This document shows, piece by piece, positions 1 to 31,802 of a DNA stretch of 32,000 bases. The stretch lies in contig NC_018655.1 of NCBI RefSeq assembly GCF_000299365.1, positions 90,001 to 122,000 on the forward strand. Direction: 5' to 3'. The stretch is from Candidatus Nitrosopumilus koreensis AR1 (GTDB lineage: Archaea; Thermoproteota; Nitrososphaeria; Nitrososphaerales; Nitrosopumilaceae). Numbering within the stretch: the first letter of the stretch is position 1; every line of letters starts with the position of its first letter. The translations under genes and the position numbers were made by a program. The notes beneath the pieces are model-generated. The model was not told the DNA's origin, searched no databases, and worked only from the letters and a program-made list of their open reading frames with translations.

Positions 1-1
1 T

Positions 2-14463: not shown

Positions 14464-14465
14464 TT

Positions 14466-15557: not shown

Positions 15558-15608
15558 TTTTCGTTCCTGTATGATATTACTAAAATATGTAAGTTCATTT
15601 TTATCATT

Positions 15609-16211: not shown

Positions 16212-16617
16212 TTATGTGCATAATTTTATGTTTTTTACAATAAGCATTCATTTTGCCTCCAGAAGAAAATGCAATTATTCTGCAATTTAATTTTCTAGCT
16301 GAATCAAGCACTACAAGAGTTTCTTTTGTATTTCCGGAAATACTTACTGTAATTACTAAAGTCTTTGAATTAACGGTTTGAGGTAACAAAAAGCCTTTAA
16401 CAATACTTACATGCATACTGTTCTTTGAAAAAATTGATGAAATAATATCCCCTATTGCACCAGAACCCCCCATTCCCGCAAAGACAATATGATCTACTTT
16501 TTCAAATTTTATCTTTGCAAATTTCTTTAAAAATGATTTTTCAGCAATTTCAGGCCATTTATCATACACATCATACATTTTTTGTTTATCGTATGTTTGA
16601 AGATCTTTTTTGTTCAA
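16150..16617 (-). CDS. bifunctional phosphoglucose/phosphomannose isomerase, N-terminal SIS-domain fragment (frameshifted)
   Basis: ...HIVFAGMGGSGAIGDII...LVITVSISGNTKETL... are SIS-domain motifs. The frame is lost in a homopolymer at 16165-16170. Confidence 0.7.
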   Translation of the reverse strand: MNKKDLQTYDKQKMYDVYDKWPEIAEKSFLKKFAKIKFEKVDHIVFAGMGGSGAIGDIISSIFSKNSMHVSIVKGFLLPQTVNSKTLVITVSISGNTKETLVVLDSARKLNCRIIAFSSGGKMNAYCKKHKIMHINVEKFHSPRASFPSFFIFNT

Positions 16618-16654
16618 TTGTAACCCTCTTTATTGTATTTCTATAAGTTATTAT

Positions 16655-17581
16655 CTAAATTAGAAATTTTCTTATTCCTTGAGAGAGTTCTATTTTTGGT
16701 TCATAATCAAGTTCTTCTTTTGCTTTTTTAATTGATGCTGTACTATGATCTATTTCCCCAATTCTTTTCTTCTCAAATTTTATTTCTAATTCTTTGTTTG
16801 AAAGTTTTTTAATTAAATTTGCTAATTCTAAAATACTTGTATATTTCCCACTTGCAACATTATAGATTTCACCATTTTTTTTGGAATCTAATGAAATCAC
16901 TTTTACAAATAAATTTACAACATCTTCAATGGCCACAAAATCCCTTGTTTGTTTCCCATCTCCAAATATTGTAAGTGGCAATTTTTTTTTACTGCATTCT
17001 ACAAATTTTGAAATAACTCCTGCATATTCTGGAGATTGACCTTCTCCATAAACATTAAACAATCTAAAGATTTTTGAGTCAAAATCATAATTTTTTGAAA
17101 AATTAATTATTTTTTCTTCCATTTTCTGTTTGCTTTTCCCATATGGTGAAATTGGATGTATGTTTTCACTTTCTATTGAAACATGATTCAAGATATTGTT
17201 GCCATATACTGCAGCGGAGGATAATGCAAAAATTTTTTTAATTTTATTTACATGACATGCTTTTAACACATTTTCAGTCCCATCTACATTTGTTTCAAAT
17301 GTTTCTTGTGGATTTTGAATTGATTCATTTACACTAATCTTTGCAGCAAGATGAATTACGATATCATTATCTATGGAGTTTTTTGAAACGTCATCCAAAT
17401 TTCTGATATCTCCTGTTATTACTTTGCTTTTATTAAAAGGAAATTTTTTTAAATTTTCTTTACTAGAATTTGAAAAATTATCATAAATTGTTATTTCATG
17501 ATTTTGTTTAATCAGTGCTTTCACTAAATGTCTTCCTATAAATCCAGCACCACCTGTTACAAAAATCCTCATTTTCATCAA
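16655..17581 (-). CDS. NAD-dependent epimerase/dehydratase (GalE-like UDP-sugar 4-epimerase family)
   Basis: MRIFVTGGAGFIGRHLVKAL..., ...SSAAVYG..., ...YGKSKQKME... (YxxxK). The start may be the Met at 17572. Confidence 0.8.
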   Translation of the reverse strand: MMKMRIFVTGGAGFIGRHLVKALIKQNHEITIYDNFSNSSKENLKKFPFNKSKVITGDIRNLDDVSKNSIDNDIVIHLAAKISVNESIQNPQETFETNVDGTENVLKACHVNKIKKIFALSSAAVYGNNILNHVSIESENIHPISPYGKSKQKMEEKIINFSKNYDFDSKIFRLFNVYGEGQSPEYAGVISKFVECSKKKLPLTIFGDGKQTRDFVAIEDVVNLFVKVISLDSKKNGEIYNVASGKYTSILELANLIKKLSNKELEIKFEKKRIGEIDHSTASIKKAKEELDYEPKIELSQGIRKFLI

Positions 17582-17687
17582 TATTTAATTTCACTTCTAT
17601 ATTTGGCATTTGTATGATGGTGTTCAAAAATTGATTTTTTATATTTAGAATTTATTTTAAATAAGGCATCTTCTTCAAAAACTCTAA

Positions 17688-19209: not shown

Positions 19210-19406
19210 CCCAATTCAAGGATTTCAATATTTTTATCAAGACCGTCTAAAAATTCAATAAAAATGTCGTCAGGATTTTGTCCTGTTATTTTTTTATAAT
19301 CATTGTTGATCTTCTCAACAGAATCGTTCCTCTTTATGTATTCATCTCCAAATTCTCCTGACCAAAACTTTCTTTGTTCAAAATTTAACTTGGAAAAATC
19401 TTTCAT
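19146..19406 (-). CDS. SAM-dependent methyltransferase, N-terminal fragment (frameshifted); resembles pseudaminic-acid-cluster-associated methylases
   Basis: ...EQRKFWSGEFGDEYIKRN...ILELGCNVG (motif I). The frame then breaks in the A/T run at 19187-19197. The FW.GEFG..Y..RN N-terminus recalls the Pse-associated methylase family (from memory). Confidence 0.6.
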   Translation of the reverse strand: MKDFSKLNFEQRKFWSGEFGDEYIKRNDSVEKINNDYKKITGQNPDDIFIEFLDGLDKNIEILELGCNVGKNFSILKKWDLQKYQE

Positions 19407-19610
19407 AAAATTTGTTGAGTTTGTTAGAATTTAGAGCTTGCTGACTGTAATAGATGTTAAAACGCACTAGAATCTTATCGTATAGGTTTGAGAGTAAATA
19501 CTGACTATTTTATTAAAAGAAAAAATAGAACCTATTAAGCAAAAAAACTTGAATTAACTGAAGCTAATTAATAGAAAGTTTTTATTGTTTTTCAAACTGC
19601 TCTTAACAAT

Positions 19611-20249
19611 ATGAGTGCAGTTTCTCCACAAGCAATCGAGGATTCTTTAAAACAATGCATGGATCCGGAAGTTCCTCTAAACATTGTAGAAATGGGACTA
19701 ATCTATGGAATTGATGTGGCAGAAAACAATGATGTCAATATCAAAATGACAATGACGACTCAAGGTTGCCCTCTTCATGAAACTCTCGTTTCTGATGCAA
19801 CAAGATTTGTCAAAAAAGTTCCCGGTGTAAACAATGTCAATATTGACATTGTGTGGGATCCACCCTGGTCCATGGATAAAATGTCTGAAGAGGCAAAAAC
19901 CAAAATCAAAAACATGGGATCTGGTATGAATACCCCTGCACCAATAAACTATGAAACTGCATTACCTCAAGGCGTTGGTAAACTAGTTCAACAAGAGGAC
20001 GGTTCTATGGTATTAGCAAACGAACATGACCAAGGATTCATGGTAAATCAAGCCATAGTTGATTTTTGGAAGTCATGTAATGGACAAAGAAAGGTTACAG
20101 ACTTGGTTGAAATCTTTGCACAACAAACAGGACTACAAAGAAATCAAGTTGAAAAAGAAGTTATGCAATTACTGCAACAATTGCGTGATGGTGGATTAAT
20201 TGCTATTGCTGGACAACCAGATGCTCCAAATGTTGAGTTTAAAAAATAA
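19611..20249 (+). CDS. DUF59/MIP18-family Fe-S assembly-type domain fused to a PqqD-like C-terminal domain
   Basis: N-terminus: DPEVPLNIVEMGLIYGIDV...VNIKMTMTTQGCPL (DUF59). C-terminus: FMVNQAIVDFWKSCNGQRKVTDLVEIFAQQTGLQRNQVEKEVMQLLQQLRDGGLI (PqqD-like pattern). Confidence 0.7.
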   Translation: MSAVSPQAIEDSLKQCMDPEVPLNIVEMGLIYGIDVAENNDVNIKMTMTTQGCPLHETLVSDATRFVKKVPGVNNVNIDIVWDPPWSMDKMSEEAKTKIKNMGSGMNTPAPINYETALPQGVGKLVQQEDGSMVLANEHDQGFMVNQAIVDFWKSCNGQRKVTDLVEIFAQQTGLQRNQVEKEVMQLLQQLRDGGLIAIAGQPDAPNVEFKK

Positions 20250-20251
20250 TT

Positions 20252-20899
20252 TTAGAAAATATAATTTGAATTTGCACCATCAAAGTTTATTGTAACTCCT
20301 GACAAGTACTTTATTTTATTCTGAATGATTGATTTTACAAAATTTCCAATCTCTTCAGGCTCCCCGAGTCTCTTCATTGGTAGAGATTGTTTGTATTCTT
20401 CAACATTTTCTATTAATTCCTGAGTCCTGTCAGTGTTGATTGGCCCTGGTGCAATATTGATACAGCTGACTTGATTTTCAGCATATTCCTTGCTTAATAC
20501 CTTGAAAATTTCAGCAAATGCTGCACGATATGCTGATGAAATTATTAATTTTGAATTTGGTTCTTTAATTACGCTTGAACTGATCAAAAAGATGTATCCG
20601 TTATCGCTGATCTTGATGTTTTGTAGAATAGTAACGAATCCCAAGAATAACTGATTGTGATATAGGTTCCAGTCCTCTTCCGTAATTGTTGCAAATGGCT
20701 TTGGGGAAGGTCCGCCGGTATTCAGAACAAGAATGTCTGTCTGAGTGTTTTTTTCCACAAATCTTCTAACGCTGCTCAAATCTGACGTGTCGATGTCTTT
20801 TCTAGAGGCTGCAAATACCTCTACACCTATGGACTTTAACGATTCTGAGATTGCCCTTCCTATTCCCCTTGAACCGCCCAGTACTATTGCGCTAGCCAT
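20252..20899 (-). CDS. short-chain dehydrogenase/reductase (classical SDR)
   Basis: AIVLGGSRGIGRAISESL cofactor motif, ...YRAAFAEIFKVLSKEY..., ...INIAPGPINTD.... Confidence 0.75.
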   Translation of the reverse strand: MASAIVLGGSRGIGRAISESLKSIGVEVFAASRKDIDTSDLSSVRRFVEKNTQTDILVLNTGGPSPKPFATITEEDWNLYHNQLFLGFVTILQNIKISDNGYIFLISSSVIKEPNSKLIISSAYRAAFAEIFKVLSKEYAENQVSCINIAPGPINTDRTQELIENVEEYKQSLPMKRLGEPEEIGNFVKSIIQNKIKYLSGVTINFDGANSNYIF

Positions 20900-20977
20900 A
20901 TGTTTTTCAAATAATACAAGACAATTAAATCTCTTGTAACGATTTCATCCACGCAAGTTATTTTCCGCATGCCTTTA

Positions 20978-22759
20978 CTATGCACTGATGTAATGCCATT
21001 CTGTGTCTTGTTCAAGTCCTACCAGCCCGTAAATTATGCTCATCATGGAGTCCTTTGGATGATTGAATTCTTTTTTGGCATCCAGTCTGGTATCAAGATC
21101 TTTCTTTAGATCCTTTCTTGTAACAGAGCAGAGCTCTGAGATCAACCATTCAGTCTCATATTCTCTGCTAGCAGAAAAAGGGATCATGAATTTAGATCTA
21201 GGATGGCCGCCTCTTGGATGGTGTCTTGATGTCTCAATCAGGTCGATGAATTTTTGTATCTGCGATGTCTTGTCAATCAAGATTCTGCCCGTCTCTTCCC
21301 CGTGCTCGTCTATCTTGTCACGATGAATCTGCATTGGCTTGCTCTCATTACTGATACTGCGGCATCCGTAGAAATTCTCGCTTCCAACTCCTGGAAACAT
21401 CCTACCGGAAGTTCTATTGGCACCGCCGTCCTGAATTGTCTTGACTTGTATTGCACCGTACCCCAAGTCCCCCACACCGATGTCCCACCTGCTTGCCCGA
21501 AACAACTCATTGATGTGTTCTGTTTGATCTAATTGGTTCTCAGATGGTCGCTTGTCAATGTACGCAAGCTGAATCCTGTCATACTTTTTCCAGTGAATCA
21601 AAATTGATATTACTGTACTTGACGGATTTCCAGAACCAAAGTCCACTCCCATAGATATTTTGATGGAATCTTTCATCACGTCCTTCCACATTGCAATCTC
21701 ATGCGGTTCCATCAACCCAAGATACCTGTAAGGATTCATGCAGGAGAGTACCATCTCCGGCGTGATTGGCCGTCCCTCTGACCTGTAAAATTTACCCATC
21801 ACGTGAGATGTAAAGTAAGACTTTGAATTGTTCTTTTCCTGGTATTCTATGGAGTAGAATGGGGATGTACGATACTTGTTTGTGGAATCGTCAATGGTCA
21901 GCGCGTTTGTTGCAAAAATTGTCTGCGGCAGATGATATCCGTGGTATATTGCATTTTCCGTGTTTTGCGGAACCCACCTTCCACTCAGAACCTCTTCAAG
22001 ATAATCTCCGACAACCAACCCGTTGCTGTCAAACCGTAACATGTCTCTCCAGTTGTGGTTGTCATAAACCCATTCCCGCTGATCAGATCTTTTCCACAGT
22101 TTCTCGTATGGCGAACCGAACTCACCACCCAATCCGAGAATCGACATCTTGCCTTTTGTTGCCATCATTGTCTGCCTTACCTTCTCCAAATGCTCAATGT
22201 CTTGGTACTGCGCCTCGTCCAGTATGCAGTGGTTCAGAGATTTTCCCTCTACGTGAATGTACTGGTTGTTGTCTGTCATGCAGTATATCGTGCTGCCGTT
22301 TTTCAGCGAAATCTCTCCCATGTTTCCAAGCTTATTGCGAGGAAACTTTGACAGTACTGGGTTCTGGCTAAACGTGCCAATCTGAAGTTTCTGTTTGGAA
22401 AAGCCAGTCAAGCTAGATTGGTTAAACGTGACATACCCAACCTGGATGCCGGGACTGGATGTTGCCTCGCATGCAAGCATGTCTGAGATGTATGTTGACT
22501 TGTAAATCTGCCTGCCTCCAACTATGATCTTCGAATGATAGTCGTCCATGTAGATGTCCTTCCAAAAGGGCGCAGTAAGAAACGTCCTTCTTTTCCCTTC
22601 TACTGTGGGCCGAGCCTTTTCTATCCATTCCAAAGGATCTGTTGGCAATGTGATGAGATGTGATGATCTTTTTGCACGTCTTTTCTTTATCTTGTTGATT
22701 GCATCTTTTGCAATCTTTCTGTGTCCCACATTCCAACTACTAAACAGCGCCATTTTCAA
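20978..22759 (-). CDS. terL: terminase large subunit (TerL), ATPase plus RNase H-like nuclease
   Basis: 593 aa. Deviant Walker A VGGRQIYKST and Walker B NHCILDEAQ. Nuclease acidic motifs are ISMGVDFGSG, IGVGDLGYG and HPKDSMMS. It is preceded by, and overlaps, a small HTH gene in a terS-terL arrangement. Confidence 0.75.
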   Translation of the reverse strand: MKMALFSSWNVGHRKIAKDAINKIKKRRAKRSSHLITLPTDPLEWIEKARPTVEGKRRTFLTAPFWKDIYMDDYHSKIIVGGRQIYKSTYISDMLACEATSSPGIQVGYVTFNQSSLTGFSKQKLQIGTFSQNPVLSKFPRNKLGNMGEISLKNGSTIYCMTDNNQYIHVEGKSLNHCILDEAQYQDIEHLEKVRQTMMATKGKMSILGLGGEFGSPYEKLWKRSDQREWVYDNHNWRDMLRFDSNGLVVGDYLEEVLSGRWVPQNTENAIYHGYHLPQTIFATNALTIDDSTNKYRTSPFYSIEYQEKNNSKSYFTSHVMGKFYRSEGRPITPEMVLSCMNPYRYLGLMEPHEIAMWKDVMKDSIKISMGVDFGSGNPSSTVISILIHWKKYDRIQLAYIDKRPSENQLDQTEHINELFRASRWDIGVGDLGYGAIQVKTIQDGGANRTSGRMFPGVGSENFYGCRSISNESKPMQIHRDKIDEHGEETGRILIDKTSQIQKFIDLIETSRHHPRGGHPRSKFMIPFSASREYETEWLISELCSVTRKDLKKDLDTRLDAKKEFNHPKDSMMSIIYGLVGLEQDTEWHYISA

Positions 22760-23210
22760 TCATATACTCCTTGATTTCCCTGGATAGTACTATGTCTGCA
22801 GTAGGAGTGACTGTGAGGTTTGTCTTTTTTAGAATCATGTCTGAAATTTTTTCAATCAGCAAAATACTTGTCTTGTAGATGTTGTTCTCAAGATTTGGTA
22901 TTCCGTTATTTTGCTCAATGCTGTATGTGATTTGTTTTTCTAGCGTTTCTTGTATCTTGTAAAGCTTTGACAGTTGGTTGTCTAGCGCAATATTGGAGTT
23001 TGAGATTATGATCTTTGATCTTTTAACAAAGTCTGGGTGTTCCGTAGATGCGATTTCGTCATACCACTTTTTGTAATATTTTTTTACAGTGTTGTGATTG
23101 ATCTTTGTCTCTCTAGATGCAATAGACACGGTCAACATTTTTTCAAAGTATGGCCGCAACTTTTTTTCAATACGCAATTGGTCTGCTTTGCTTGGCCTAC
23201 CTTTATTCAC
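22740..23210 (-). CDS. HTH DNA-binding protein, terminase small subunit candidate
   Basis: 156 aa. The N-terminus MNKGRPSKADQLRIEKKL...SIASRETKINHNTVKKYYKKW is HTH-like, followed by a coiled-coil-like region. It overlaps the terL start by 14-20 nt. Confidence 0.5.
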   Translation of the reverse strand: MNKGRPSKADQLRIEKKLRPYFEKMLTVSIASRETKINHNTVKKYYKKWYDEIASTEHPDFVKRSKIIISNSNIALDNQLSKLYKIQETLEKQITYSIEQNNGIPNLENNIYKTSILLIEKISDMILKKTNLTVTPTADIVLSREIKEYMIENGAV

Positions 23211-25186: not shown

Positions 25187-26041
25187 CTATTTTACAATAG
25201 AATATTCTGATTTCCCACTAATGATGTCCCATTTTACTAATTTTAATTCCGCAAGACGGCCCATGGTTGCAACCCTTTCTGAAGTTACAGAATATACCTT
25301 ATCTGCTTCGTCAGGATTGTGGATTCTTAGATACTCAATCCATTCTTCTTTGAATACATCATCTAATTCATCAGAAGACATTTTTTTAGTTTCTAGTTCT
25401 TTCATAATCCGTTTAACTACTTTATTCTCAAAATCAAATTTTGAAATTATTTGTTTACGGATTAGTTTTACTTCCTCATTTGAAAAATTAGAATCAAATC
25501 TATCTTCATCTAATATAGGATTTTCTAGTATTGCAAATTCTTTTCCTAAATCAGACAATGTAAGAAAACAGCCATCATCATTAATTTTTGCTCTAACCAG
25601 TCCTAATTCAAAACATGCACCTTTAAAATCCAAATCTTTTTTAAGAAAACGTCCAACGAATTGTTCTTTAAAACGAAGTTCACTTGCAGCTATTTTATCT
25701 AATTTTTTCTTTTTCTTAACTCCCTTCAAATTTTTTGTTTCGGATTTTGGCAAGGGCAATCCTGTCGAGAGTTTTTCATTTCGGCCCAACTCATTTTCAT
25801 CTTCATATGCTTTTAATTGATCTGATACTCTTTCTGCATACTCAAATGATTTTTCTCTTAACTCGTCTAATGAGAACCAAATTTTGTTTGTTGATGTAAT
25901 TAAATTTGCTAATGTCCGTACAATAATTTTAACAGGAAAAAATCTATTGTAAAACGTCCAAATCATAGAACCATATGATAAGATAATTTCATTTTTCTCA
26001 GTTTCAACACCTGTTAGTAATCCATGTAATTCTCTTTGCAT
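25187..26041 (-). CDS. hypothetical protein (no recognisable catalytic motif; possibly winged-helix-containing)
   Basis: 284-aa ORF, Lys/Glu-rich, that I cannot assign to a family. It overlaps the upstream RHH ORF by 38 nt and might be fused to it (see findings). Confidence 0.5.
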   Translation of the reverse strand: MQRELHGLLTGVETEKNEIILSYGSMIWTFYNRFFPVKIIVRTLANLITSTNKIWFSLDELREKSFEYAERVSDQLKAYEDENELGRNEKLSTGLPLPKSETKNLKGVKKKKKLDKIAASELRFKEQFVGRFLKKDLDFKGACFELGLVRAKINDDGCFLTLSDLGKEFAILENPILDEDRFDSNFSNEEVKLIRKQIISKFDFENKVVKRIMKELETKKMSSDELDDVFKEEWIEYLRIHNPDEADKVYSVTSERVATMGRLAELKLVKWDIISGKSEYSIVK

Positions 26042-26243
26042 TTCTTTGATTATTTTTTTTAATTTCTAAATCGAGTGGTTTTGAAGAACCGATACCTTCA
26101 GTTGAAGATTCTGATTGTTCTTCTTGAATTTGATTGTTTAATGCAATTTTGATAAAATCATACAAATCATCATATTTTCCATCTTTTACCAAATCCTCAA
26201 TCTTTTTGTATAGATCGCTATCAATGTCTACCTTGATTAGCAT
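26004..26243 (-). CDS. ribbon-helix-helix (CopG/Arc-like) DNA-binding protein
   Basis: MLIKVDIDSDLYKKIEDLVKDGKYDDLYDFIKIALNNQIQEE fits the beta-strand/helix/helix RHH pattern, followed by an acidic/Ser-rich linker. Confidence 0.6.
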   Translation of the reverse strand: MLIKVDIDSDLYKKIEDLVKDGKYDDLYDFIKIALNNQIQEEQSESSTEGIGSSKPLDLEIKKNNQRNAKRITWITNRC

Positions 26244-26246: not shown

Positions 26247-26383
26247 TGTATTTCGTGCCTGTATTATTTAAAATATATAGTAAAACACTCTAAATATTCA
26301 ATGTATTTCGTGTTATACATAGATCCATATGTTATATCCTTTTTAGATACTCTTTTATACTGTATAATACTCTTTATACTGTA
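26247..26383. promoter_or_regulatory. divergent promoter/operator region with two sets of direct repeats
   Basis: TGTATTTCGTG occurs at 26247-26257 and 26302-26312. The tandem pair ATACTCTTTTATACTGTA (26347-26364) and ATACTCTTTATACTGTA (26367-26383) ends 3 nt before the PIN ATG. Both tandem copies contain TATA-like TTTATA. Confidence 0.5.
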
Positions 26384-26386: not shown

Positions 26387-26815
26387 ATGGCAACCGTACA
26401 GTTTGAATCGATGTTGGCTTTAGACTCTTGTGTAGTAATTGCTACAATCAAGAGTCCAAAAATAGCCAGAAAAATTATCCGCATTTTTAGAGGAAACAAT
26501 AGCAGAGTAATCCTTCAAGATGTAGTCTTAAAGGAAGCATCAAAAATTCTTGGAATTCCAAAAGAAGAAGTCCTAGAAAAAATCAGCGCAATTCTCAGAA
26601 AAGAGGTACAGGTATTTACAACAACTGACTCTATGAGAAATGAAGCAACTAGATATGAAAACCAATATGGGATATGTCACAATCCAGACAGTAAAATTCT
26701 AGCTGCGGCAAAGACATTTTCCTGGACACTTCTTACTATGGATAAGAAGATGCTTCAGACTGCAGAGTTTGAAGGAATTTTAGCACTAAACCCAGTATGG
26801 GTGGGAGGAAAATAA
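26387..26815 (+). CDS. PIN-domain nuclease (VapC-like fold)
   Basis: The conserved acidic positions have the expected spacing: LALDSCVVIA (beta1 Asp), ...LKEASK..., ...NPDSKILAAA..., ...LLTMDKKM.... Confidence 0.65.
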   Translation: MATVQFESMLALDSCVVIATIKSPKIARKIIRIFRGNNSRVILQDVVLKEASKILGIPKEEVLEKISAILRKEVQVFTTTDSMRNEATRYENQYGICHNPDSKILAAAKTFSWTLLTMDKKMLQTAEFEGILALNPVWVGGK

Positions 26816-27360
26816 AATTGCCTCATTATTACTTTGATATTGAGACTACGGGACTAGACCCAAAGGTAGATGAAATCCTAACCATTCAATATCAAAAGAT
26901 TTCAGTTCATACAGGTGAAGCTGTAGGCCCACTGACAATTCTGTCTAGTTGGGAATATTCCGAAGAAGACATTGTAAAAGAGATTGCAGTCAACATGCTA
27001 GATGAATACCCTTGGAATTTCGTTCCGGTTGGAAACAATCTGACATTTGAGTTCAAATTTCTGTCTGAGAAATTTAGAAAATATCTTGGAACAGAAATTG
27101 ATGTAGAGTTTTTTGTTACAAGACCTCACATAGATCTCAAATCAGTAATGATACTTGCAAACTCTGGCAAATTCAAAGGATGTCACCTAGTACTTGGAAA
27201 ACAGGGCAATGGCTCTGAAGTTCCAACATGGTATGAAAACGGAGAGTTTCAAAAAATTATTGAGTATGTAAAAGACGAGGCAAATTGTTTTCTCAACTTT
27301 ACATCAGAAGCACAGAAAGTATTGGGAAATAGATTCACGGGAGGACAAAGAAATGTCTGA
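26797..27360 (+). CDS. DEDD-type 3'-5' exonuclease (RNase H-like fold, YprB/PolB-exo-related)
   Basis: Exo I is YYFDIETTGLD. Exo II-like is PVGNNLTFEFKFL. The C-terminal ...IIEYVKDEANCF is Exo III-like. It overlaps the PIN gene by 19 nt. Confidence 0.65.
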   Translation: MGGRKIKLPHYYFDIETTGLDPKVDEILTIQYQKISVHTGEAVGPLTILSSWEYSEEDIVKEIAVNMLDEYPWNFVPVGNNLTFEFKFLSEKFRKYLGTEIDVEFFVTRPHIDLKSVMILANSGKFKGCHLVLGKQGNGSEVPTWYENGEFQKIIEYVKDEANCFLNFTSEAQKVLGNRFTGGQRNV

Positions 27361-27481
27361 CAATCAAAGAGTTGTAAAACTTCCTTCGCAAGTTATTCTT
27401 TTAGTGCTCAAAACTGAGGCTAGAATGGACGAATTTCTGGCAAAACAGGCACAAAAATTGGAGGTTGAGGGTCTTGTCTAA
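27353..27481 (+). CDS. small 42-aa ORF (hypothetical)
   Basis: My translation is MSDNQRVVKLPSQVILLVLKTEARMDEFLAKQAQKLEVEGLV*. Its ATG overlaps the exonuclease stop (ATGTCTGA), and its 3' end overlaps the next gene's TTG start. It is not in the ORF track because it is under 60 aa. Confidence 0.3.
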   Translation: MSDNQRVVKLPSQVILLVLKTEARMDEFLAKQAQKLEVEGLV

Positions 27482-28001
27482 TTCCAAAATCCAAATTTCG
27501 GTAAATGCAATCAAAGGTAAAATTGCCGAAGAGATTGCAAAACAAGATTATCTAAGAAACGGATTTGAAATTCAAGAAACAGGAATTGGAAGTGACTTTA
27601 TTGCAGTAAAGAAAACAAACGATACCATCTACAAAGAATACGTAGATGTAAAGTCCGGCAATGCAAGACTGACCAAGAAACAAAAAGAAACTAAAAATCA
27701 ATTAAGAAAAGAAAACATCTGTTACTCCATATATCGTGTTACAAACCAACATCTAGAATTCCAAATTCAAAATAATCCTCAATTGCAACAACTTTGCCAA
27801 TACTTGGGATTTGACATTTCTCAATATGCCGGAGTGTTTGTTATTCAGGATCCAACTAGTTGTCCTAATTGCGGGTTAGGCGGTGAAGGCTTGCAAGAAA
27901 TTCTATCAAAGTTTGGACTACGCAACATGGGAAATGGAACTGTCAGAGTTCAATCTTGGTGTAGAAATTGCAGGAACTATTCAAGGAGAGGAAAAAAATG
28001 A
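27465..28001 (+). CDS. PD-(D/E)xK nuclease (VRR-NUC/Hjc-like) with C-terminal zinc ribbon
   Basis: GKIAEEIAKQDYLRNGFEI...GSDFIAVKK...YVDVKSGNARLTKKQKE gives the E...D...(D/E)xK...Q pattern. The C-terminus CPNCG...CRNCRN is a zinc ribbon. The start is TTG. Confidence 0.6.
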   Translation: MRVLSNSKIQISVNAIKGKIAEEIAKQDYLRNGFEIQETGIGSDFIAVKKTNDTIYKEYVDVKSGNARLTKKQKETKNQLRKENICYSIYRVTNQHLEFQIQNNPQLQQLCQYLGFDISQYAGVFVIQDPTSCPNCGLGGEGLQEILSKFGLRNMGNGTVRVQSWCRNCRNYSRRGKK

Positions 28002-28156
28002 GATGCAAACTATGCAATTCAGTTCACAAGAATACTTCTAGATACCAATCATGGATTGAACATCAGATATGTCGTACATGCTCTTATGTATTGGATATCT
28101 TTTCTTGGAACTCAAATTATCTTAAAGAGTATTGGGAGGTATCTTTTGCTTCCTGA
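27998..28156 (+). CDS. small zinc-ribbon protein (52 aa)
   Basis: MRCKLCNSVHKNTSRYQSWIEHQICRTCSYVLD has CxxC...CxxC. It has an ATGA overlap with the nuclease stop (ATG 27998-28000, TGA 27999-28001). Confidence 0.45.
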   Translation: MRCKLCNSVHKNTSRYQSWIEHQICRTCSYVLDIFSWNSNYLKEYWEVSFAS

Positions 28157-28415
28157 ATTAATTCCGTCTGTCTCTAGGCATTTTTTGTATTCTATACTAG
28201 AAGATAATCACAAAAGTGGAATGGCAATAATAGAAACCATGGCAGAAGCCCGTCCTGAAGAAATAGGAGAATTTTTGTCTTCCCTAGCTAATTGCCTTGT
28301 TTCTTATTTCTACCAATTAGAAACAGGCTTTAGTGATTACGAGAAAATTCGAATTCAGGCACTAAAAGCACTAAAGAATCCTGATTATGAGGATAACGTG
28401 GAGGAGTGTAATTGA
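28056..28415 (+). CDS. hypothetical protein (start uncertain; acidic helical C-terminus)
   Basis: 119-aa ORF with a TTG start that overlaps the previous ORF by 101 nt. Only the C-terminal part (MAIIETMAEARPEEIGEFL...) looks protein-like, so the true start may be the Met at 28221. Confidence 0.35.
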   Translation: MNIRYVVHALMYWISFLGTQIILKSIGRYLLLPELIPSVSRHFLYSILEDNHKSGMAIIETMAEARPEEIGEFLSSLANCLVSYFYQLETGFSDYEKIRIQALKALKNPDYEDNVEECN

Positions 28416-28452
28416 ATTCAAACAAAATCAGATCAGATTATGAGGATCATAA

Positions 28453-28460
28453 CTTTATAC
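28453..28460 (+). promoter_or_regulatory. TATA-like box (CTTTATAC) upstream of the GHKL cassette
   Basis: The same CTTTATAC octamer occurs in the PIN-operon promoter repeats (26372-26379). It lies about 25-28 nt upstream of the 28482 start, consistent with an archaeal leaderless transcript. This is inference only. Confidence 0.3.
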
Positions 28461-28481: not shown

Positions 28482-29156
28482 TTGGAGGTTTTAATTTTGG
28501 AAACTAGTTTTTTTGACAAGTTAAAGCCATACAAACCAGAGCAGTACAGTTCGAATATCACATTAGACAAACTTGTAACTGTGGGATTGCTAAAATTGGA
28601 TGAAGCAAAAATCGAAAAAAGCTTTGACAATGTTGTGGTGATATTACATAAACTGTTCCCAGAAAAATTCTCGCTAATTACATATCCTCAATATCCTGAC
28701 TCCATTAGAGTTGATAACACACTTAGACTGGATGCAAAAAAACACAGCAAGTATCTTACAGGCAATAGGGTTCAAGGATACGAATTAACCAGTTTAGGAA
28801 AAATCACAGCTGAAGATACACTTGTACAACTAAGTTCATCTAATTCTAGAATAGTTAACAAAATCTCCGGAACTCAAAGAAATAGAGCAACAAGGGCAAT
28901 TGGAGGCGTAAGTAATTCTGATGCATTTAAAAAATATTCTACAAAACAATTTAAGGAAATTAACAGATTTGATGTATGTAGTTTTCTTCATGGAACATTA
29001 GAAACAGATAACGAGAAATTGTTAGCAAACCTCAAAGTCCTAAAGAGATTTGCAAAAGATATTGGAACTCTAAAAGAGTTTGAAGACATATCAAAACAAA
29101 CTTTAGAATTTTTTGATTATATTGAAAAGAATTGGGAGGAGTATTCTCATGACTAG
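28482..29156 (+). CDS. hypothetical protein, first gene of GHKL cassette
   Basis: 224-aa ORF with a TTG start and no motif I can assign. Its stop overlaps the GHKL gene start (ATGACTAG, 29149-29156). Confidence 0.5.
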   Translation: MEVLILETSFFDKLKPYKPEQYSSNITLDKLVTVGLLKLDEAKIEKSFDNVVVILHKLFPEKFSLITYPQYPDSIRVDNTLRLDAKKHSKYLTGNRVQGYELTSLGKITAEDTLVQLSSSNSRIVNKISGTQRNRATRAIGGVSNSDAFKKYSTKQFKEINRFDVCSFLHGTLETDNEKLLANLKVLKRFAKDIGTLKEFEDISKQTLEFFDYIEKNWEEYSHD

Positions 29157-31383
29157 AACTGGCAAAAAACTAATGGCATTAGATGACCGTCTTGTAAGTA
29201 GAATTCAAGAAAGGGGAACTAGGGGAAATGTAATTAAAAGTCTAGCTGAATTGGTCAAAAATTGTGATGATGCTTATGACAGATTAGAATTACAAGGAGA
29301 AAAGACAAGTGGAATTATAGAAATCGGTTATTGGAAATTACCAAAAGGCAAAGGGTTCAGTGTTTCAGGATTTTTTGTAAGGGACTTTGGTGCAGGAATG
29401 TCAACGGAGCAACTAACAAATGCTTACTTTAGTGAATCTCCAGACAAAGGAAACTATGGAAGTGACACTAGTGGAGATACTAGAAATGGTGCCATAGGGG
29501 TAGGCGGAAAGGACTGTTTCAAAAATATGGTCGATTGCCTAATTATTTCTGTTAAAGATAATCAGTTGACAGTTGCAGATATTGAAACAGATGTACGTAC
29601 AGATCGTCTAGCAAGCGAGATTATCTCAGGAGAAGATGCAACACCGTATTTGCAACAAGTAAATAACATGCTAAAAAATTCTGCCGAGTCAATTGACTTA
29701 TCTAAAAACCAAACATTTGCCATGTTCAGACTTCCTGAACATCATAGTGGTTCAAGAACAGATACTTTGGCCGAACAACTAACCAACTTTTACACTCTTA
29801 GATGGATTATGGAATCAAATATTCGTAAAGTGAAATTAATCGATGTAACAACTGGTCAAACATCAATATTAAAACACATTCCCACTCCAGGAGAAGTAAT
29901 TTTTGAAAAATCATTTACCATTCCGTATTCTAATATCGGTTATGACGTACTAGTACAAATCAAAAAATCTGAAACGGACTTGGATCATAAAAGTGACTTT
30001 GGGGAAAATATTCTGATAAAGGATAATCGAGGTGCAATTTTAGATAACAAACTGTTTGGATATGAATCGGATTCTGGTGCAAATAGAATATTTGGACAAG
30101 TTGTAATTAATGATTGGAAAAAACTTTACAGATTAGAAAAAGGAAAAATTCTAACTGATCAACGTGAAGGGCTAGATTATAATCACAAATTCAACAAACT
30201 TTTAGAACAGATAATCAGAACACACCTAAAACCGATTATTGATGCTGAGAAAGAAAAACAAGGCAGTAATCCTAGGCTTGAACAAGGCTTAGACAAGAAT
30301 ATCAAAAAAGCATTTGCGTTTATCAACAAAATTATGATGAAGGATCCTGATGCGGGAACTCATGAAGAAGAACTTCCTGATGTGCCCCCAGAAGGAATTG
30401 AATTTTCAAAACCATCATTAACAATTCCATTTGAAAAAACAAAAAAACTCAAATTATTGTTAAATCCCGGTAGAGTTCCAACTAATTCTGAAATTGCATT
30501 ACGAGTATTTGGTGAGGCAATCACAATAAGTCCTGAAAATTCCATTAGTGCTCCTGGAACATATGACGTAGATGTCCCATATGTGGAAATTGAAATTACA
30601 GGAAAGAAGTTAAACGCAAGAAGTACTCTAAAGGCCTATTTTGGGGAAATGGTGGCAGAAACAGAAATTTTTGTTGTGCCAGAACAATTTTTCCAGCCAA
30701 AACATGGTTTTGCATTTAAGCCCTCCAAAGCCAATTTGATTCCAAAAAAATCGCGAAAAATTAAACTTGTCATAGATACAAATCTTGTAGATCCGGGCAC
30801 ACCAATAGAGATCTCTTGTGATGATGAGAGAGTTGAATTTTCACCCAAAAAACTTACTGTTACAAATCCTCCAAATCTTGGCAAATATCTCACCGAAGAA
30901 ATAATAGAAATTTCATGTAGTAAACTGGGATTAAAGGCAAAGTTAGTTGCTGAAACAAAGACGAATGCAGGTGAAGACAGACAAGCAATATGTGAACTAG
31001 AAGTTAAAGAAAAAGAGCCTCCAAAACAATTTTTCAAAGACTATGAACTAGATCCTAAAGGAGAAAAAAGAGTTCGTTCAAGATTCAAAGATGGAATTAT
31101 CTATGTTCACGTAAATGCTCCTATTTTGTTATTCACTTTTGGTAGAAATCAAAAGAATCTCAGAGATAAGAAAGCAGAGGCCATCTTTATGTTGGCAGAT
31201 ACAGTTGTTCAGAGAATGGCAATGGAATGGGCAACATGGAAGGCCGATAATAATAAACTCGATATACTATCTGATAGAGCTACAGAAATTCAAGTTGAGA
31301 AAAACAGTATTGAATACGAATACGGTCTTCAAATTCATCAAATGATAGTTCAAGGATTTACAAAAAAACTAGAGGATCTTTAA
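29149..31383 (+). CDS. GHKL (Bergerat-fold) ATPase, MORC/paraMORC-like, with tandem beta-rich C-terminal repeats
   Basis: N-box SLAELVKNCDDAYD, G1 box FFVRDFGAGMS, G2 box NGAIGVGGKDCF. The start is placed at MTRTGKK (29149), preceded by GGAGGA at 29135-29140. The ORF track begins at 29113. 744 aa. Confidence 0.7.
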   Translation: MTRTGKKLMALDDRLVSRIQERGTRGNVIKSLAELVKNCDDAYDRLELQGEKTSGIIEIGYWKLPKGKGFSVSGFFVRDFGAGMSTEQLTNAYFSESPDKGNYGSDTSGDTRNGAIGVGGKDCFKNMVDCLIISVKDNQLTVADIETDVRTDRLASEIISGEDATPYLQQVNNMLKNSAESIDLSKNQTFAMFRLPEHHSGSRTDTLAEQLTNFYTLRWIMESNIRKVKLIDVTTGQTSILKHIPTPGEVIFEKSFTIPYSNIGYDVLVQIKKSETDLDHKSDFGENILIKDNRGAILDNKLFGYESDSGANRIFGQVVINDWKKLYRLEKGKILTDQREGLDYNHKFNKLLEQIIRTHLKPIIDAEKEKQGSNPRLEQGLDKNIKKAFAFINKIMMKDPDAGTHEEELPDVPPEGIEFSKPSLTIPFEKTKKLKLLLNPGRVPTNSEIALRVFGEAITISPENSISAPGTYDVDVPYVEIEITGKKLNARSTLKAYFGEMVAETEIFVVPEQFFQPKHGFAFKPSKANLIPKKSRKIKLVIDTNLVDPGTPIEISCDDERVEFSPKKLTVTNPPNLGKYLTEEIIEISCSKLGLKAKLVAETKTNAGEDRQAICELEVKEKEPPKQFFKDYELDPKGEKRVRSRFKDGIIYVHVNAPILLFTFGRNQKNLRDKKAEAIFMLADTVVQRMAMEWATWKADNNKLDILSDRATEIQVEKNSIEYEYGLQIHQMIVQGFTKKLEDL

Positions 31384-31400
31384 TCGGTAAGGAATAAAAA

Positions 31401-31802
31401 ATGGATGCCAATCAAAAAGATTCTGCATTCCATATTGACATTAGTGATTTAGAGGAAATTGAAAAGAAAGAAAGAAAAAGAAAATACATCAATGAATATC
31501 AAAGAAAATATGCCAAAAGATCATATGTAAAAGATAAACTAAGCAAACAAAAACAAAACAAAACACTAACTGAAAAAATTAAGAAACTAGGAACAGAAGA
31601 TCCACATAGGATTTGTAAAAAATTGGGACGTACTAGAGCATACGGACGACGACATCCAGAATACTTTTACCGATGCTCAAAATGTGATGTGTCTTATTCA
31701 GATAAAGAAAAAGAGCATTTCTATAAAGAAAACAAATGCCCATGTTGCCATTTGATGTTAAGACAAAGGAAAACTGTTACTCAAAAGAAAAGTCTCAATT
31801 AA
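31401..31802 (+). CDS. basic zinc-ribbon protein (hypothetical, probable nucleic-acid binding)
   Basis: 133 aa. The N-terminal half is Lys/Arg/Glu-rich (EKKERKRKYINEYQRKYAKRSY). The C-terminus has CSKC...CPCC cysteine pairs. Confidence 0.5.
   Translation: MDANQKDSAFHIDISDLEEIEKKERKRKYINEYQRKYAKRSYVKDKLSKQKQNKTLTEKIKKLGTEDPHRICKKLGRTRAYGRRHPEYFYRCSKCDVSYSDKEKEHFYKENKCPCCHLMLRQRKTVTQKKSLN

What the first reader, a model, noticed from the sequence alone, without database searches (positions are those of the whole stretch)
28482..31802. Three-gene cassette built around a MORC-like GHKL ATPase: candidate undescribed defence / MGE-conflict system
An unassignable 224-aa protein overlaps (ATGACTAG at 29149-29156) a 744-aa protein. 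A 133-aa basic CxxC...CxCC zinc-ribbon protein follows 17 nt downstream. The 744-aa protein's N-terminus shows all three Bergerat-fold boxes (ELVKNCDDA, VRDFGAGM, GAIGVGGKD). It has no histidine-kinase, MutL, gyrase/TopoVI-B or Hsp90 hallmark that I can see. Its roughly 500-aa remainder includes two tandem beta-rich repeats. Prokaryotic MORC/paraMORC GHKL ATPases are known from comparative genomics to associate with restriction and defence loci, usually next to recognisable nucleases, helicases or methylases. Here the partners are novel, and the cassette has its own TATA-like box (28453). It sits in a mobile region immediately after a nuclease operon. An ATP-driven DNA-clamping sensor with small DNA-binding partners, possibly using the upstream nucleases as effectors, is a reasonable hypothesis. 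It remains pure inference.
Basis: partly seen in the sequence, partly recalled or inferred. Interest (0 to 1): 0.75.

Follow-up and report, generated by a model that had tools for sequence, protein, structure and literature searches.

The report
Winged-helix plus GHKL ATPase gene pair
This is an undescribed but widespread two-gene module, a small winged-helix protein plus a large ATP-driven "clamp-type" enzyme, carried here as swappable cargo in a known integrated mobile element of a marine ammonia-oxidising archaeon; it probably acts in conflicts between genomes and invading DNA, but its function is untested.

Summary
The three ORFs, their junctions and the Bergerat-fold motifs are real. The window is Ca. 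Nitrosopumilus koreensis AR1 (NC_018655:90001-122000). The cassette lies inside the published cryptic integrated element NitKor-E1, whose description never mentions it.

B (744 aa) is a GHKL ATPase with an S5 transducer, two homologous Ig-like repeats and a helical tail. It is not a MORC by the family's defining motif, and Pfam (beyond generic HATPase_c_3 in relatives), PADLOC and PDB sequence searches do not place it. A (about 219 aa) is a winged helix plus a helical domain of no known family.

The conserved unit is the pair A-B, not the trio. A sits immediately upstream of B in every locus examined, archaeal and bacterial, once inside an ATP-synthase operon. The Zn-ribbon C is specific to Nitrosopumilus.

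The upstream nucleases are a separable element backbone. In sister elements the A-B-C position instead holds a different GHKL-like gene with a DNA methyltransferase, or an EVE-domain protein.

Best reading: an autonomous, mobile defence or conflict module built on an ATP-gated clamp. This is circumstantial (confidence about 0.5). The nucleases-as-effectors idea is not supported.

The parts
20866..20874 (+). Left att site (CCCTTGAAC) of the integrated element NitKor-E1. The element runs from here past the end of the window, to window-equivalent position 36269.
   Evidence: The supplement of PMC6563490 gives NitKor-E1 as NC_018655:110866-126269 with att CCCTTGAAC. The motif occurs once in the window, at 20866, which fixes window coordinate = genome coordinate - 90000.
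20978..23210 (-). TerL (20978-22759) and TerS (22740-23210) relics of a head-tailed virus. These are context within NitKor-E1.
   Evidence: TerL hits phrog_675 at E 1.3e-36 and TerS hits phrog_4102 at E 1.4e-3. GC is 0.43-0.44 against about 0.33 around it. Described in PMC6563490. IMG/VR relatives of TerL are 40-47% identical.
25187..26243 (-). Divergently transcribed backbone gene with what I read as a ribbon-helix-helix-like N-terminus. In this genome it is split into 79-aa and 284-aa ORFs by an apparent frameshift.
   Evidence: It is one 360-423-aa gene in L001, L003, L005 and L006. tblastn maps both window ORFs onto it. No family hit.
26387..28415 (+). Element backbone: PIN nuclease (26387-26815), DEDDh/RNase H-like exonuclease (26797-27360), PD-(D/E)xK Hjc/VRR-NUC-like nuclease with a C-terminal Zn ribbon (27465-28001), a small Zn-ribbon ORF (27968-28156) and an 89-119-aa ORF (28056-28415).
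   Evidence: Pfam hits: PIN 1.5e-8, RNase_H_2 1.9e-7, VRR_NUC 9.7e-5 and Endonuc_Holl 1e-3. Conserved in order in L001, L003, L005, L006, L023, L026, L027, L029, L030 and L032. Present without A-B-C in L029, L030, L023 and L033.
28444..28460 (+). Conserved promoter-like element GGATCATAACTTTATAC, with the TATA-like box at 28454-28459, upstream of A.
   Evidence: Sequence. Alignment of the regions upstream of A in seven loci shows conservation, including L002 (no nuclease genes) and L008. Promoter function is inferred, not shown.
28482..29156 (+). Gene A (NKOR_00625). Probable start is TTG 28497, giving 219 aa. It has an N-terminal winged helix-turn-helix and a C-terminal all-helical domain, and is the universal partner of B.
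   Evidence: ORF. There are 48 close homologues on the same contigs as B. AlphaFold pLDDT is 79 with H-H-H-beta-beta topology at residues 23-97. Only weak fold matches to MarR, DtxR, KAT6A-WH, SSV1 F-93 and MukF, none at E<=1e-3. No Pfam or PDB family. 566 representatives at E<=1e-3 among 1.84 billion proteins. Immediately upstream of B in every locus.
29149..29748 (+). Gene B (NKOR_00630), residues 1-200: an arginine-rich N-terminal strap followed by the GHKL (Bergerat) ATP-binding domain.
   Evidence: Invariant E34, N38, D41, D79, G83, G117, G119, K121 and T189; nearly invariant R14, R18, R25. 29 of 46 family members hit PF13589. Fold matches to MORC2, GyrB, Topo VI-B and Hsp90.
29749..30378 (+). 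B residues 201-410: S5-type transducer domain followed by long helices. The conserved loop LTDNREGL carries the invariant R339.
   Evidence: Secondary structure and pLDDT. Foldseek alignments of 385-530 columns to GyrB 43K, Topo VI-B and MORC2. R339, G341 and L342 are invariant in archaeal and bacterial branches. A role for R339 as gamma-phosphate sensor is inferred from its position before the long helix.
30382..31014 (+). B residues 412-622: two homologous Ig-like beta-sandwich repeats.
   Evidence: hhalign of repeat 1 against repeat 2 gives probability 97.6%, E 4.1e-12. Fold matches to ASH/Ig-like domains, transglutaminase C-terminal barrels, intimin and phage Big_2 proteins.
31015..31383 (+). 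B residues 623-744: a short beta segment and a C-terminal helical domain, a candidate constitutive dimerisation domain.
   Evidence: Helices 658-735 at pLDDT about 87-94. Weak similarity to the C-terminus of the bacterial branch, E 1e-3. Dimerisation is inferred.
31401..31802 (+). Gene C: a basic 133-aa Zn-ribbon protein, an accessory specific to Nitrosopumilus.
   Evidence: Six conserved Cys, pI 9.3-9.7, four homologues. Present in L001, L003, L005/L006 and L032, degenerate in L002. Replaced by unrelated small ORFs or nothing in bacterial-type loci. No family hit.

Best explanation
A and B form an autonomous, horizontally mobile two-gene module. In Nitrosopumilus it has gained a third small Zn-ribbon gene (C) and rides as exchangeable cargo in the NitKor-E1 family of integrated elements.

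B is an active GHKL ATPase of the dimerising MutL/GyrB/Topo VI-B/Hsp90/MORC class. An ATP-operated N-terminal gate (strap plus GHKL) is coupled through an S5 transducer (R339 loop, long helices) to two Ig-like spacer domains and a C-terminal helical domain. Together these would close a ring. A is its stoichiometric partner (overlapping genes), contributing a winged-helix DNA-binding surface and a helical B-binding or regulatory domain.

The module most likely acts on DNA in genetic conflict, either host or element defence or exclusion of rival elements. It would do this by ATP-dependent clamping of target DNA, independently of the neighbouring nucleases.

Shown: gene structure, motif conservation, fold class, pair synteny across domains of life, mobility, and the cargo-slot position.

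Inferred: ATPase activity, dimer or ring formation, A-B complex, DNA as substrate, and defence as the biological role.
For: (1) The catalytic GHKL residues and a transducer arginine are invariant across archaeal and bacterial branches. The model is confident at pLDDT 86.7, with GHKL+transducer fold matches.

(2) A sits directly upstream of B, overlapping or within 6 nt, in every locus examined. These include Nitrosopumilus, Bathyarchaeia, Anaerolineales/Chloroflexi, Gammaproteobacteria, WOR-3 and Dehalococcoidales. The close archaeal A and B families are similar in size, 48 and 47 clusters, and there are at least 432 bacterial-type B clusters and 566 A representatives.

(3) The pair is autonomous and mobile. 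It is inserted between atpG and atpD in two Chloroflexi genomes, between secA and a PolX gene, and between POR operons and Spt5/L11 in a Bathyarchaeon. Its phyletic distribution is sporadic. No third gene is shared.

(4) It lies inside the integrated element NitKor-E1 at a variable-cargo position. Downstream of the same conserved backbone gene, sister elements carry either a different Zn-ribbon GHKL-like protein, a partner and a beta-class DNA methyltransferase (L029, L030, L023), or an EVE-domain protein with weak SRA-like similarity to LpnPI and McrA (L033).

(5) Restriction or immune-type neighbours occur in several other loci: an Mrr_cat gene on the same strand shortly downstream (L017), N6_N4 methyltransferase/HNH (L018, L004), TIR (L014), ImmA-HTH and HNH (L011), EVE-AAA_5 McrB-like (L003), and C5 methylases with transposase fragments (L002).

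(6) B evolves faster than its housekeeping neighbour: 82% identity against 97% for AtpD between L009 and L010.

(7) GHKL+S5 ATPases have precedent in restriction-type systems (PMC2292703) and in Shedu (PMC12137116).
Against: - No experiment exists.
- Neither A nor B matches any PADLOC model, in archaeal or bacterial versions.
- The minimal pair has no recognisable effector: no nuclease, TIR or membrane domain.
- About 6 of 10 bacterial-type contexts are purely housekeeping. In L015/L020 the site is conserved while B is 68% and SecA 62% identical, which points to long vertical retention, unusual for defence genes.
- Within Nitrosopumilus, A-B-C diverges no faster than the backbone genes.
- A's DNA binding and the A-B interaction are inferred from fold and gene overlap only. 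A's fold matches are all weaker than E 1e-3.
- The hotspot argument rests on three cargo types from a handful of contigs. One of those cargo assignments, GHKL for the 653-aa protein, is at motif level only.
Confidence: 0.5

Rival explanations
1. Toxin-antitoxin or addiction-type selfish module. A would be a winged-helix antitoxin and autorepressor encoded upstream. B would be a large enzyme toxin whose ATP-driven activity, such as trapping DNA or a client protein, arrests the cell when A is lost. The pair would stabilise the element or spread as a selfish cassette. It might protect against phage only secondarily, through abortive infection.
For: The gene order, a small DNA-binding protein first and the enzyme second with overlapping genes, matches HipBA and AbiE-type systems (my own knowledge of those systems). 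The pair occurs as a bare two-gene insertion in essential operons and housekeeping regions. It sits on an integrated element that also carries a VapBC-type PIN gene. No effector domain is needed under this model.
Against: No similarity to any known toxin or antitoxin family. B is far larger and more elaborate than typical toxins. The conserved synteny over deep divergence in L015/L020 is not typical of addiction modules. Toxicity is untested.
Confidence: 0.2
2. Maintenance function of the mobile element. The GHKL ATPase and its winged-helix partner would work with the backbone PIN, exonuclease and Hjc-like nucleases in replication, recombination, DNA topology or partition of NitKor-E1-type elements.
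For: In Nitrosopumilus the nuclease block and A-B-C lie on one strand with short gaps and are co-inherited at similar divergence. Where A-B-C is missing, three of four sister loci have another GHKL-like gene in the same place, so some GHKL function may be wanted next to the nucleases. B's architecture resembles topoisomerase ATPase subunits, with target TM 0.44-0.45 and the longest alignment to M. mazei Topo VI-B.
Against: A-B occurs without any of these nucleases in all ten bacterial-type contexts and in L002. L033 has the backbone with no GHKL gene in the 1.7 kb held downstream of it. A has no Toprim domain or other catalytic domain that would make a topoisomerase. A-B has its own conserved promoter-like element. 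No relatives were found in IMG/VR, INPHARED phages or PLSDB plasmids.
Confidence: 0.12
3. Cellular housekeeping accessory. B would be an Hsp90-like chaperone or a MutL-like repair factor, with A as co-factor or regulator, acquired sporadically and kept for protein or DNA quality control.
For: The only sequence-level PDB matches of both family profiles are Hsp90-family N-domains (E 0.009-0.05). The conserved NRE/NRA-G-L loop resembles, from my memory, the Hsp90 catalytic-arginine loop. There is stable synteny next to secA and a PolX repair polymerase in one lineage.
Against: The matches are marginal and limited to the ATP-binding motifs. There is no MutL endonuclease motif and no match to an Hsp90 middle or C-terminal domain. 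The distribution is rare and patchy: 47 close clusters despite the abundance of Nitrosopumilus in metagenomes. The location on an integrated element at a cargo slot argues against a core function. PolX is degraded in L015 while A-B is intact.
Confidence: 0.08

Closest known systems
Prokaryotic MORC and paraMORC GHKL ATPases (Iyer, Abhiman & Aravind 2008, PMC2292703)
   Same: An N-terminal GHKL domain with all ATP-binding motifs, followed by an S5-fold transducer carrying a conserved basic residue. Sporadic, laterally transferred distribution in Bacteria and Archaea. Some neighbourhoods with DNA methylases, HNH or Mrr-type nucleases. A probable non-orthologous GHKL replacement in the same neighbourhood, which is the logic that defined the paraMORCs.
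   Different: It lacks the MORC-defining GhXhhpXXRhl motif (0 of 53 sequences). No superfamily II helicase partner was seen. The C-terminal region consists of tandem Ig-like repeats and a helical domain, not an RE-fold nuclease or TIR. It has an obligate winged-helix partner, which the parts of that paper I read do not describe. Most occurrences are bare two-gene cassettes.
Topoisomerase VI subunit B / GyrB 43K ATPase modules
   Same: GHKL plus a transducer ending in long helices, with a conserved basic residue in the loop before them. Foldseek target TM is 0.44-0.45. The longest alignment (669 columns) is to M. mazei Topo VI-B, which from memory also ends in an Ig-like domain. Both are paired with a protein containing a winged helix.
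   Different: The partner A has no Toprim domain, and no cleavage function can be inferred. No significant sequence similarity. I did not identify an H2TH domain. The genomic behaviour is that of a mobile accessory cassette, not a housekeeping enzyme.
Hsp90 / Grp94 / TRAP1
   Same: The best, though marginal, sequence-level match of the ATP-binding domain. GHKL plus middle domain plus C-terminal dimerisation layout. A conserved arginine-containing loop after the middle domain.
   Different: E-values are only 0.009-0.05 and cover motifs I-III alone. Ig-like repeats replace the Hsp90 middle and C-terminal domains. It has a winged-helix partner and a mobile-element context.
GHKL-containing defence proteins: GHKL-Shedu VcSduA (PMC12137116)
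   Same: A GHKL ATPase used as the regulatory or sensor module of a conflict system. That paper predicts an entwined dimer with a clamp-like middle domain for VcSduA.
   Different: That protein fuses the GHKL domain to a DUF4263 PD-(D/E)xK nuclease effector. B carries no recognisable effector, and neither A nor B matches any PADLOC model.
CapK/CapS regulators (PMC13373217) and AbiE/HipBA-type two-gene modules
   Same: A DNA-binding winged-helix or HTH protein paired with a GHKL or other nucleotide-using enzyme, found next to immune genes or on mobile elements.
   Different: CapK is an HTH-STAS-GHKL kinase without a transducer, and CapS is STAS-wHTH. A has no STAS domain, and B is of the ATPase (transducer) class. 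There is no sequence relation to AbiE or HipBA components.

Membership tests
GHKL (Bergerat-fold) ATPase superfamily | Motif I (ExxxNxxD), motif II (DxGxG), the glycine-rich ATP-lid motif III, and the motif IV threonine | tested here: met
   E34, N38, D41, D79, G83, G117, G119, K121 and T189 are invariant in 46 homologues. The equivalents are invariant in the bacterial branch.
GHKL (Bergerat-fold) ATPase superfamily | Profile or fold recognition | tested here: met
   29 of 46 family members hit PF13589 (best E 4e-8) and 4 hit PF02518. The window protein itself gives no Pfam hit. The AlphaFold model matches MORC2, GyrB, Topo VI-B and Hsp90 at probability 1.0.
MORC family (Iyer et al. 2008) | GHKL followed by an S5-fold domain with a conserved basic residue | tested here: met
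   Fold alignments of 385-530 columns cover GHKL plus transducer. R339 is invariant.
MORC family (Iyer et al. 2008) | The family-specific GhXhhpXXRhl motif in the S5 domain | tested here: not met
   A regex search, strict and with R/K relaxed, found the motif in 0 of 46 archaeal-type and 0 of 7 bacterial-type sequences. The motif definition comes from PMC2292703.
MORC family (Iyer et al. 2008) | Closer in sequence to MORCs than to other GHKL proteins | tested here: not met
   Family profiles searched against all PDB sequences, which include the MORC2 chains seen, found only Hsp90-family N-domains (E 0.009-0.05) and no MORC at E<=10.
paraMORC1-5 (Iyer et al. 2008) | Conserved neighbourhood with SFII helicases, DNA methylases, and Vsr, HNH or RE-fold nucleases | tested here: inconclusive
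   No helicase was seen in any locus. Methylase, HNH or Mrr neighbours occur in L002, L004, L017 and L018. The others are housekeeping contexts.
paraMORC1-5 (Iyer et al. 2008) | Family-specific C-terminal modules: an RE nuclease in paraMORC3, TIR in paraMORC4, an HxH domain in paraMORC5, and ExxxH in the S5 domain of paraMORC2 | tested here: not met
   The C-terminal half of B consists of two Ig-like repeats and a helical domain, which excludes the nuclease and TIR modules. ExxxH and HxH were not searched for specifically, and no paraMORC reference sequences were available.
Type IIB topoisomerase (Topo VI) B subunit | A partner A subunit with a 5Y-CAP winged helix and a Toprim domain | tested here: not met
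   A has a winged helix, but its C-terminal 120 residues are predicted all-helical. No Toprim, Spo11 or Topo VI-A fold match was found.
MutL | A C-terminal dimerisation/endonuclease domain with the DQHA(X)2E(X)4E motif | tested here: not met
   The motif is absent. No MutL chain was found in the PDB sequence searches.
Histidine kinase / CapK-type GHKL kinases | A DHp/HisKA (or STAS) domain preceding the catalytic domain, and no transducer | tested here: not met
   The GHKL domain starts at residue ~28, with only a strap before it, and is followed by an S5 transducer. CapK/CapS architecture is from PMC13373217.
Known or candidate anti-phage systems (PADLOC-DB v2.0.0) | A match of any component to a PADLOC model | tested here: not met
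   No hit at E<=1 for the window's A and B, for seven bacterial or other archaeal B proteins, or for three further A proteins. C gave only a weak hit to PDC-S13 (E 0.0033).
Toxin-antitoxin / abortive-infection two-gene modules | Toxicity of the enzyme partner neutralised by the upstream DNA-binding partner | not testable with these tools
   Only the gene order and overlap are consistent with this.

The most novel reading that the evidence does not exclude
The A-B pair is an effector-less immunity or silencing device. An ATP-gated GHKL ring, spaced by Ig-like domains and closed by a C-terminal helical dimer, would be loaded onto foreign or element DNA by a winged-helix partner. That partner might bridge the two protomers in a kleisin-like way. 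The ring would block the DNA's replication or transcription by topological entrapment. This would be a prokaryotic counterpart of MORC-type silencing, exchanged as cargo between archaeal integrated elements and bacterial chromosomes.
Probability: 0.15. Interest if true: 0.8.

Novelty: new variant of a known kind. Interest (0 to 1): 0.55.

Why it matters
GHKL+S5 ATPases were linked to prokaryotic restriction systems by comparative genomics in 2008. They gave rise to eukaryotic MORC silencers, yet few prokaryotic versions have been studied.

This pair is a compact, widespread family: hundreds of clusters across at least seven bacterial and archaeal lineages. It is not named in any source database record I saw, and it has an unusual architecture of Ig-like repeats and an obligate winged-helix partner. 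It can sit alone inside essential operons.

It also shows that the NitKor-E1 family of thaumarchaeal integrated elements has a cargo slot that exchanges restriction-like modules. As far as I know, few immune systems of ammonia-oxidising archaea have been characterised.

If the pair protects without a nuclease, it would be a simple model for how ATP-gated clamps restrain DNA.

Tried and rejected
- **Curated libraries.** Pfam, PHROGs, NCBIfam, PADLOC and PDB sequence searches with the window's own proteins gave nothing for B, A or C beyond noise.
- **CapK/CapS.** This GHKL kinase plus wHTH repressor model was considered and rejected. Their STAS domains and kinase-type GHKL do not fit.
- **MORC membership.** Rejected on the signature motif and the profile searches.
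- **MutL and Topo VI.** Rejected: no endonuclease motif, and no Toprim in A.
- **Viral or plasmid origin.** B has no relatives in IMG/VR, INPHARED phages or PLSDB plasmids. The Hjc-like backbone nuclease has no close relative in IMG/VR. In BFVD the only specific viral relative of B is an uncharacterised giant-virus protein.
- **Alternative cargo related to A or B?** Profile comparisons of the L029 cargo proteins with B and A were negative.
- **RNA genes.** tRNA and Rfam scans of the window were empty.
- **A's fold.** The fold search gave only weak winged-helix and MukF matches, so the kleisin idea stays speculative.

Full report
**1. The observation**

The three ORFs exist as described.
- A runs from 28482 to 29156. 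The more likely start is TTG 28497, giving the 219-aa NCBI protein NKOR_00625, with a GGAGG 8 nt upstream.
- A overlaps B (29149-31383, 744 aa, NKOR_00630) by 8 nt in the string ATGACTAG.
- C (31401-31802, 133 aa) follows after 17 nt.

Their key residues (E34, N38, D41, D79, G83, G117, G119, K121) and T189, which I read as the motif IV threonine, are invariant in an alignment of 46 homologues.

The two beta-rich repeats are genuine homologous repeats. Residues 412-512 against 516-622 give hhalign probability 97.6% and E 4e-12.

C is basic (pI 9.7) with six conserved cysteines.

The TATA-like box at 28454-28459 lies in a GATCATAAnTTTATAC element. That element is conserved upstream of A in most related loci.

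**2. Where this is**

B is 100% identical to a hypothetical protein of Ca. Nitrosopumilus koreensis AR1.

Krupovic et al. (PMC6563490) list a cryptic integrated element, NitKor-E1, at NC_018655:110866-126269 with att CCCTTGAAC. That 9-mer occurs once in the window, at 20866. So the window is genome positions 90001-122000, and the element covers window 20866 to the end and 4.3 kb beyond.

This fits the rest of the window:
- 1-17.6 kb is a low-GC sugar and nonulosonic-acid island.
- 17.7-20.9 kb holds housekeeping genes.
- Then come TerL (phrog_675, E 1.3e-36) and TerS at 43-44% GC.

The paper mentions the terminase relics, VapBC, a PD-(D/E)XK endonuclease and a tyrosine integrase. Its main text has no occurrence of GHKL, HATPase or MutL.

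**3. What the proteins are**

*Protein B.* It gets no hit in Pfam, PADLOC, PHROGs, NCBIfam or PDB sequences on its own. However, 29 of 46 family members hit PF13589 HATPase_c_3.

The AlphaFold model is confident, with mean pLDDT 86.7. It shows, in order:
- an arginine-rich N-terminal strap;
- the GHKL domain;
- an S5-type transducer followed by long helices;
- two Ig-like sandwiches and a short beta segment;
- a helical C-terminal domain.

Foldseek against the PDB matches the first ~400 residues about equally to MORC2, GyrB 43K, Topo VI-B and Hsp90, with target TM 0.42-0.45. The rest matches Ig-like domains.

The MORC-defining motif GhXhhpXXRhl (PMC2292703) is absent from all 53 sequences tested. 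Both family profiles find only Hsp90-family N-domains in the PDB, at E 0.009-0.05. There is no MutL endonuclease motif.

A loop with invariant R339 (LTDNREGL; NRAGL in bacteria) sits just before the long helix. This is where GyrB and Topo VI-B carry their gamma-phosphate-sensing lysine. That comparison is my inference from established knowledge of those enzymes.

B is therefore a distinct GHKL+S5 family.

*Protein A.* The model (pLDDT 79) has a winged helix at residues 23-97 and a helical C-terminal domain. Fold matches are all weaker than E 1e-3: MarR, DtxR, KAT6A-WH, SSV1 F-93 and MukF. It belongs to no Pfam or PDB family.

**4. The conserved unit is A-B**

tblastn of the window's proteins against all fetched loci shows an A homologue immediately upstream of B everywhere. 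This includes five bacterial MAGs whose B is only 23-29% identical. The genes overlap or lie within 6 nt.

The bacterial-type branch has at least 432 clusters at 90% identity. Source names include Chloroflexi, KSB1, Bathyarchaeia and Thermoprotei. The A family has 566 representatives at E<=1e-3 among 1.84 billion proteins.

The third gene is not conserved:
- the Zn-ribbon C occurs only in Nitrosopumilus loci;
- L009, L010 and L020 have an unrelated acidic 70-80-aa ORF;
- L016 has a different four-Cys ORF;
- other loci have nothing.

**5. Autonomy and mobility**

In L009 and L010 the pair, followed by a small 70-73-aa ORF, sits between atpG and atpD of the F-type ATP synthase operon. AtpD is 97% identical between the two genomes and B is 82%.

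Other bare insertions:
- between secA and a PolX gene in L015 and L020;
- between POR operons and Spt5/L11 in a Bathyarchaeon;
- between peptidase and cell-envelope genes in L019.

Other loci have conflict-type neighbours:
- an Mrr_cat gene on the same strand shortly downstream in L017, with a phage-like radical SAM protein between them;
- an N6_N4 methyltransferase fragment and a methyltransferase/HNH gene on either side in L018;
- a convergent methyltransferase in L004;
- a TIR protein in L014;
- ImmA-HTH and HNH in L011;
- an EVE-AAA_5 McrB-like gene in L003;
- C5 methylases and transposase fragments in L002.

That is roughly 4 of 10 bacterial-type contexts, so the association is mixed.

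**6. Relation to the nucleases**

Within Nitrosopumilus the genes form a conserved block. In order: a divergent gene I read as RHH-like, PIN, DEDDh exonuclease, Hjc-like nuclease, two small ORFs, then A, B and C.

I fetched loci through the Hjc-like nuclease and mapped all block genes onto them. The backbone is followed by A-B-C in L026, L027 and L032.

In L029 and L030 the backbone is instead followed by three genes (L023 shows only the start of the first before its contig ends):
- a 653-661-aa protein with an N-terminal Zn ribbon and GHKL-like motifs. It has a weak, collinear similarity to the MutL N-terminal region (E 0.012, using a MutL sequence I supplied from memory) and is not related to B;
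- a ~310-320-aa partner;
- a convergent CcrM/MboIIA-like DNA methyltransferase (E 1e-21).

These are described.

In L033 the position holds a long protein with an EVE domain (PH1033, E 4.5e-6). It also has weak similarity to the readers of LpnPI and McrA.

Conversely, L002 has A-B with only remnants of the two small backbone ORFs and no nuclease genes.

So the nucleases are the element's backbone, and A-B-C is one of several exchangeable cargos at one slot. The alternatives are restriction-modification-like. This is the strongest, though still indirect, argument for a conflict role. It also speaks against the nucleases being dedicated effectors.

**7. Mechanism (inferred)**

By analogy with every characterised GHKL+transducer ATPase, B should dimerise through its ATP-bound N-terminal domains. 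The conserved R14, R18 and R25 in the strap fit this. ATP hydrolysis would be coupled through the transducer to the distal domains.

The C-terminal helical domain is a candidate second dimer interface. That would make a ring with the Ig-like repeats as spacers.

A, made in step with B, would supply DNA recognition.

I commit to an ATP-gated clamp acting on DNA in defence or element-exclusion, at about 0.5 confidence for the biological role and lower for the clamp details.

Rivals are a toxin-antitoxin-like addiction module (0.2), an element maintenance function with the nucleases (0.12), and a cellular chaperone or repair accessory (0.08).

**8. Novelty**

Searches of the paper library found no description of this pair. 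The known GHKL defence proteins, such as GHKL-Shedu, differ in architecture.

It is best filed as a new variant of the known kind 'GHKL+S5 ATPases in conflict systems'. It is not a MORC, and its function is unproven.

Noticed in passing
L009:8961-12103 (also L010:147-3304): The A-B pair, followed by a 70-73-aa ORF, is inserted inside the F-type ATP synthase operon, between atpG and atpD, in two Chloroflexi MAGs. A 113-aa ORF of no known family lies between atpG and A. Between the two genomes AtpD is 97% identical, the 113-aa ORF 98% and B only 82%.
   Followed up: partly
L029:6997-10906 and L030:6943-10935: This is the alternative cargo at the A-B-C slot: a Zn-ribbon GHKL-like 653-661-aa protein, a ~310-320-aa partner and a convergent CcrM-like methyltransferase. 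Between the two loci the methyltransferase is 87% identical, but the GHKL-like protein is 37% and its partner 31%. That is a striking rate difference or a module swap.
   Followed up: partly
L033:817-2559: A third cargo at the same slot: a protein of at least 581 aa, cut by the contig end. It has Cys clusters, an EVE/PUA-like domain (PH1033, E 4.5e-6) and weak similarity to the LpnPI and McrA modified-DNA readers. It looks like a type IV restriction-type protein.
   Followed up: partly
window 25187-26243 (-): The divergent backbone gene is split into 79-aa and 284-aa ORFs that overlap by 38 nt in different frames. In L001, L003, L005 and L006 it is one 360-423-aa gene. This is probably a frameshift, making it a pseudogene or a sequencing error in AR1. 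Its N-terminus reads like a ribbon-helix-helix domain.
   Followed up: partly
window 26349-26382: A near-perfect tandem direct repeat, ACTCTTT(T)ATACTGTA, occurs twice. Each copy contains a TATA-like box, and the repeat lies immediately upstream of the PIN gene's ATG (26387) in the divergent intergenic region. It is a possible promoter/operator for a leaderless transcript.
   Followed up: no
window 27968-28156: A small Zn-ribbon ORF (two CxxC pairs) overlaps both the end of the Hjc-like nuclease gene and the start of the next ORF. It is conserved at 60-81% identity in all backbone loci and called as a 51-52-aa gene in L003, L005 and L006.
   Followed up: partly
window 1-17600: A 17-kb low-GC (24-31%) island of sugar and nonulosonic-acid biosynthesis genes. 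It includes NeuB, a CMP-sugar cytidylyltransferase, a DegT aminotransferase, epimerases/dehydratases and several methyltransferases. It is probably a variable cell-surface glycosylation island next to the integrated element.
   Followed up: partly
window 20978-22759 (-): The terminase large-subunit relic has 43-44% GC against about 33% for its surroundings. It has 40-47% identical relatives on IMG/VR viral contigs of 29-34 kb (L035, L037). The rest of the element has no IMG/VR relatives.
   Followed up: partly
B protein model (window 29149-31383) versus BFVD: The best viral structural match covers nearly the full length: an uncharacterised 702-aa protein of the giant virus Hokovirus HKV1 (A0A1V0SGC9, E 4.6e-18, TM about 0.4). 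Phage RIIA proteins also match the ATPase half weakly.
   Followed up: no
One search hit list (for example P0275, P0308, P0316, P0330, P0349): Some A-family relatives are 280-570 aa long with two or more A-like stretches. These are tandem-duplicated or repeated winged-helix partners.
   Followed up: no
L017:9921-13089: Directly downstream of A-B, on the same strand with short gaps, lie a phage-type radical SAM protein (phrog_9298, E 5e-58), a 370-aa protein of an unknown PHROG family and an Mrr_cat nuclease. This may be an extended system or an adjacent one.
   Followed up: no
L002:1-206 and 19230-21808: The Nitrosopumilus MAG region that carries A-B without the nucleases also encodes a second, unrelated HATPase_c_3/HATPase_c protein (707 aa). 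It also has a 119-aa plus 739-aa gene pair of unknown function, among C5 methylases and DDE transposase fragments.
   Followed up: no
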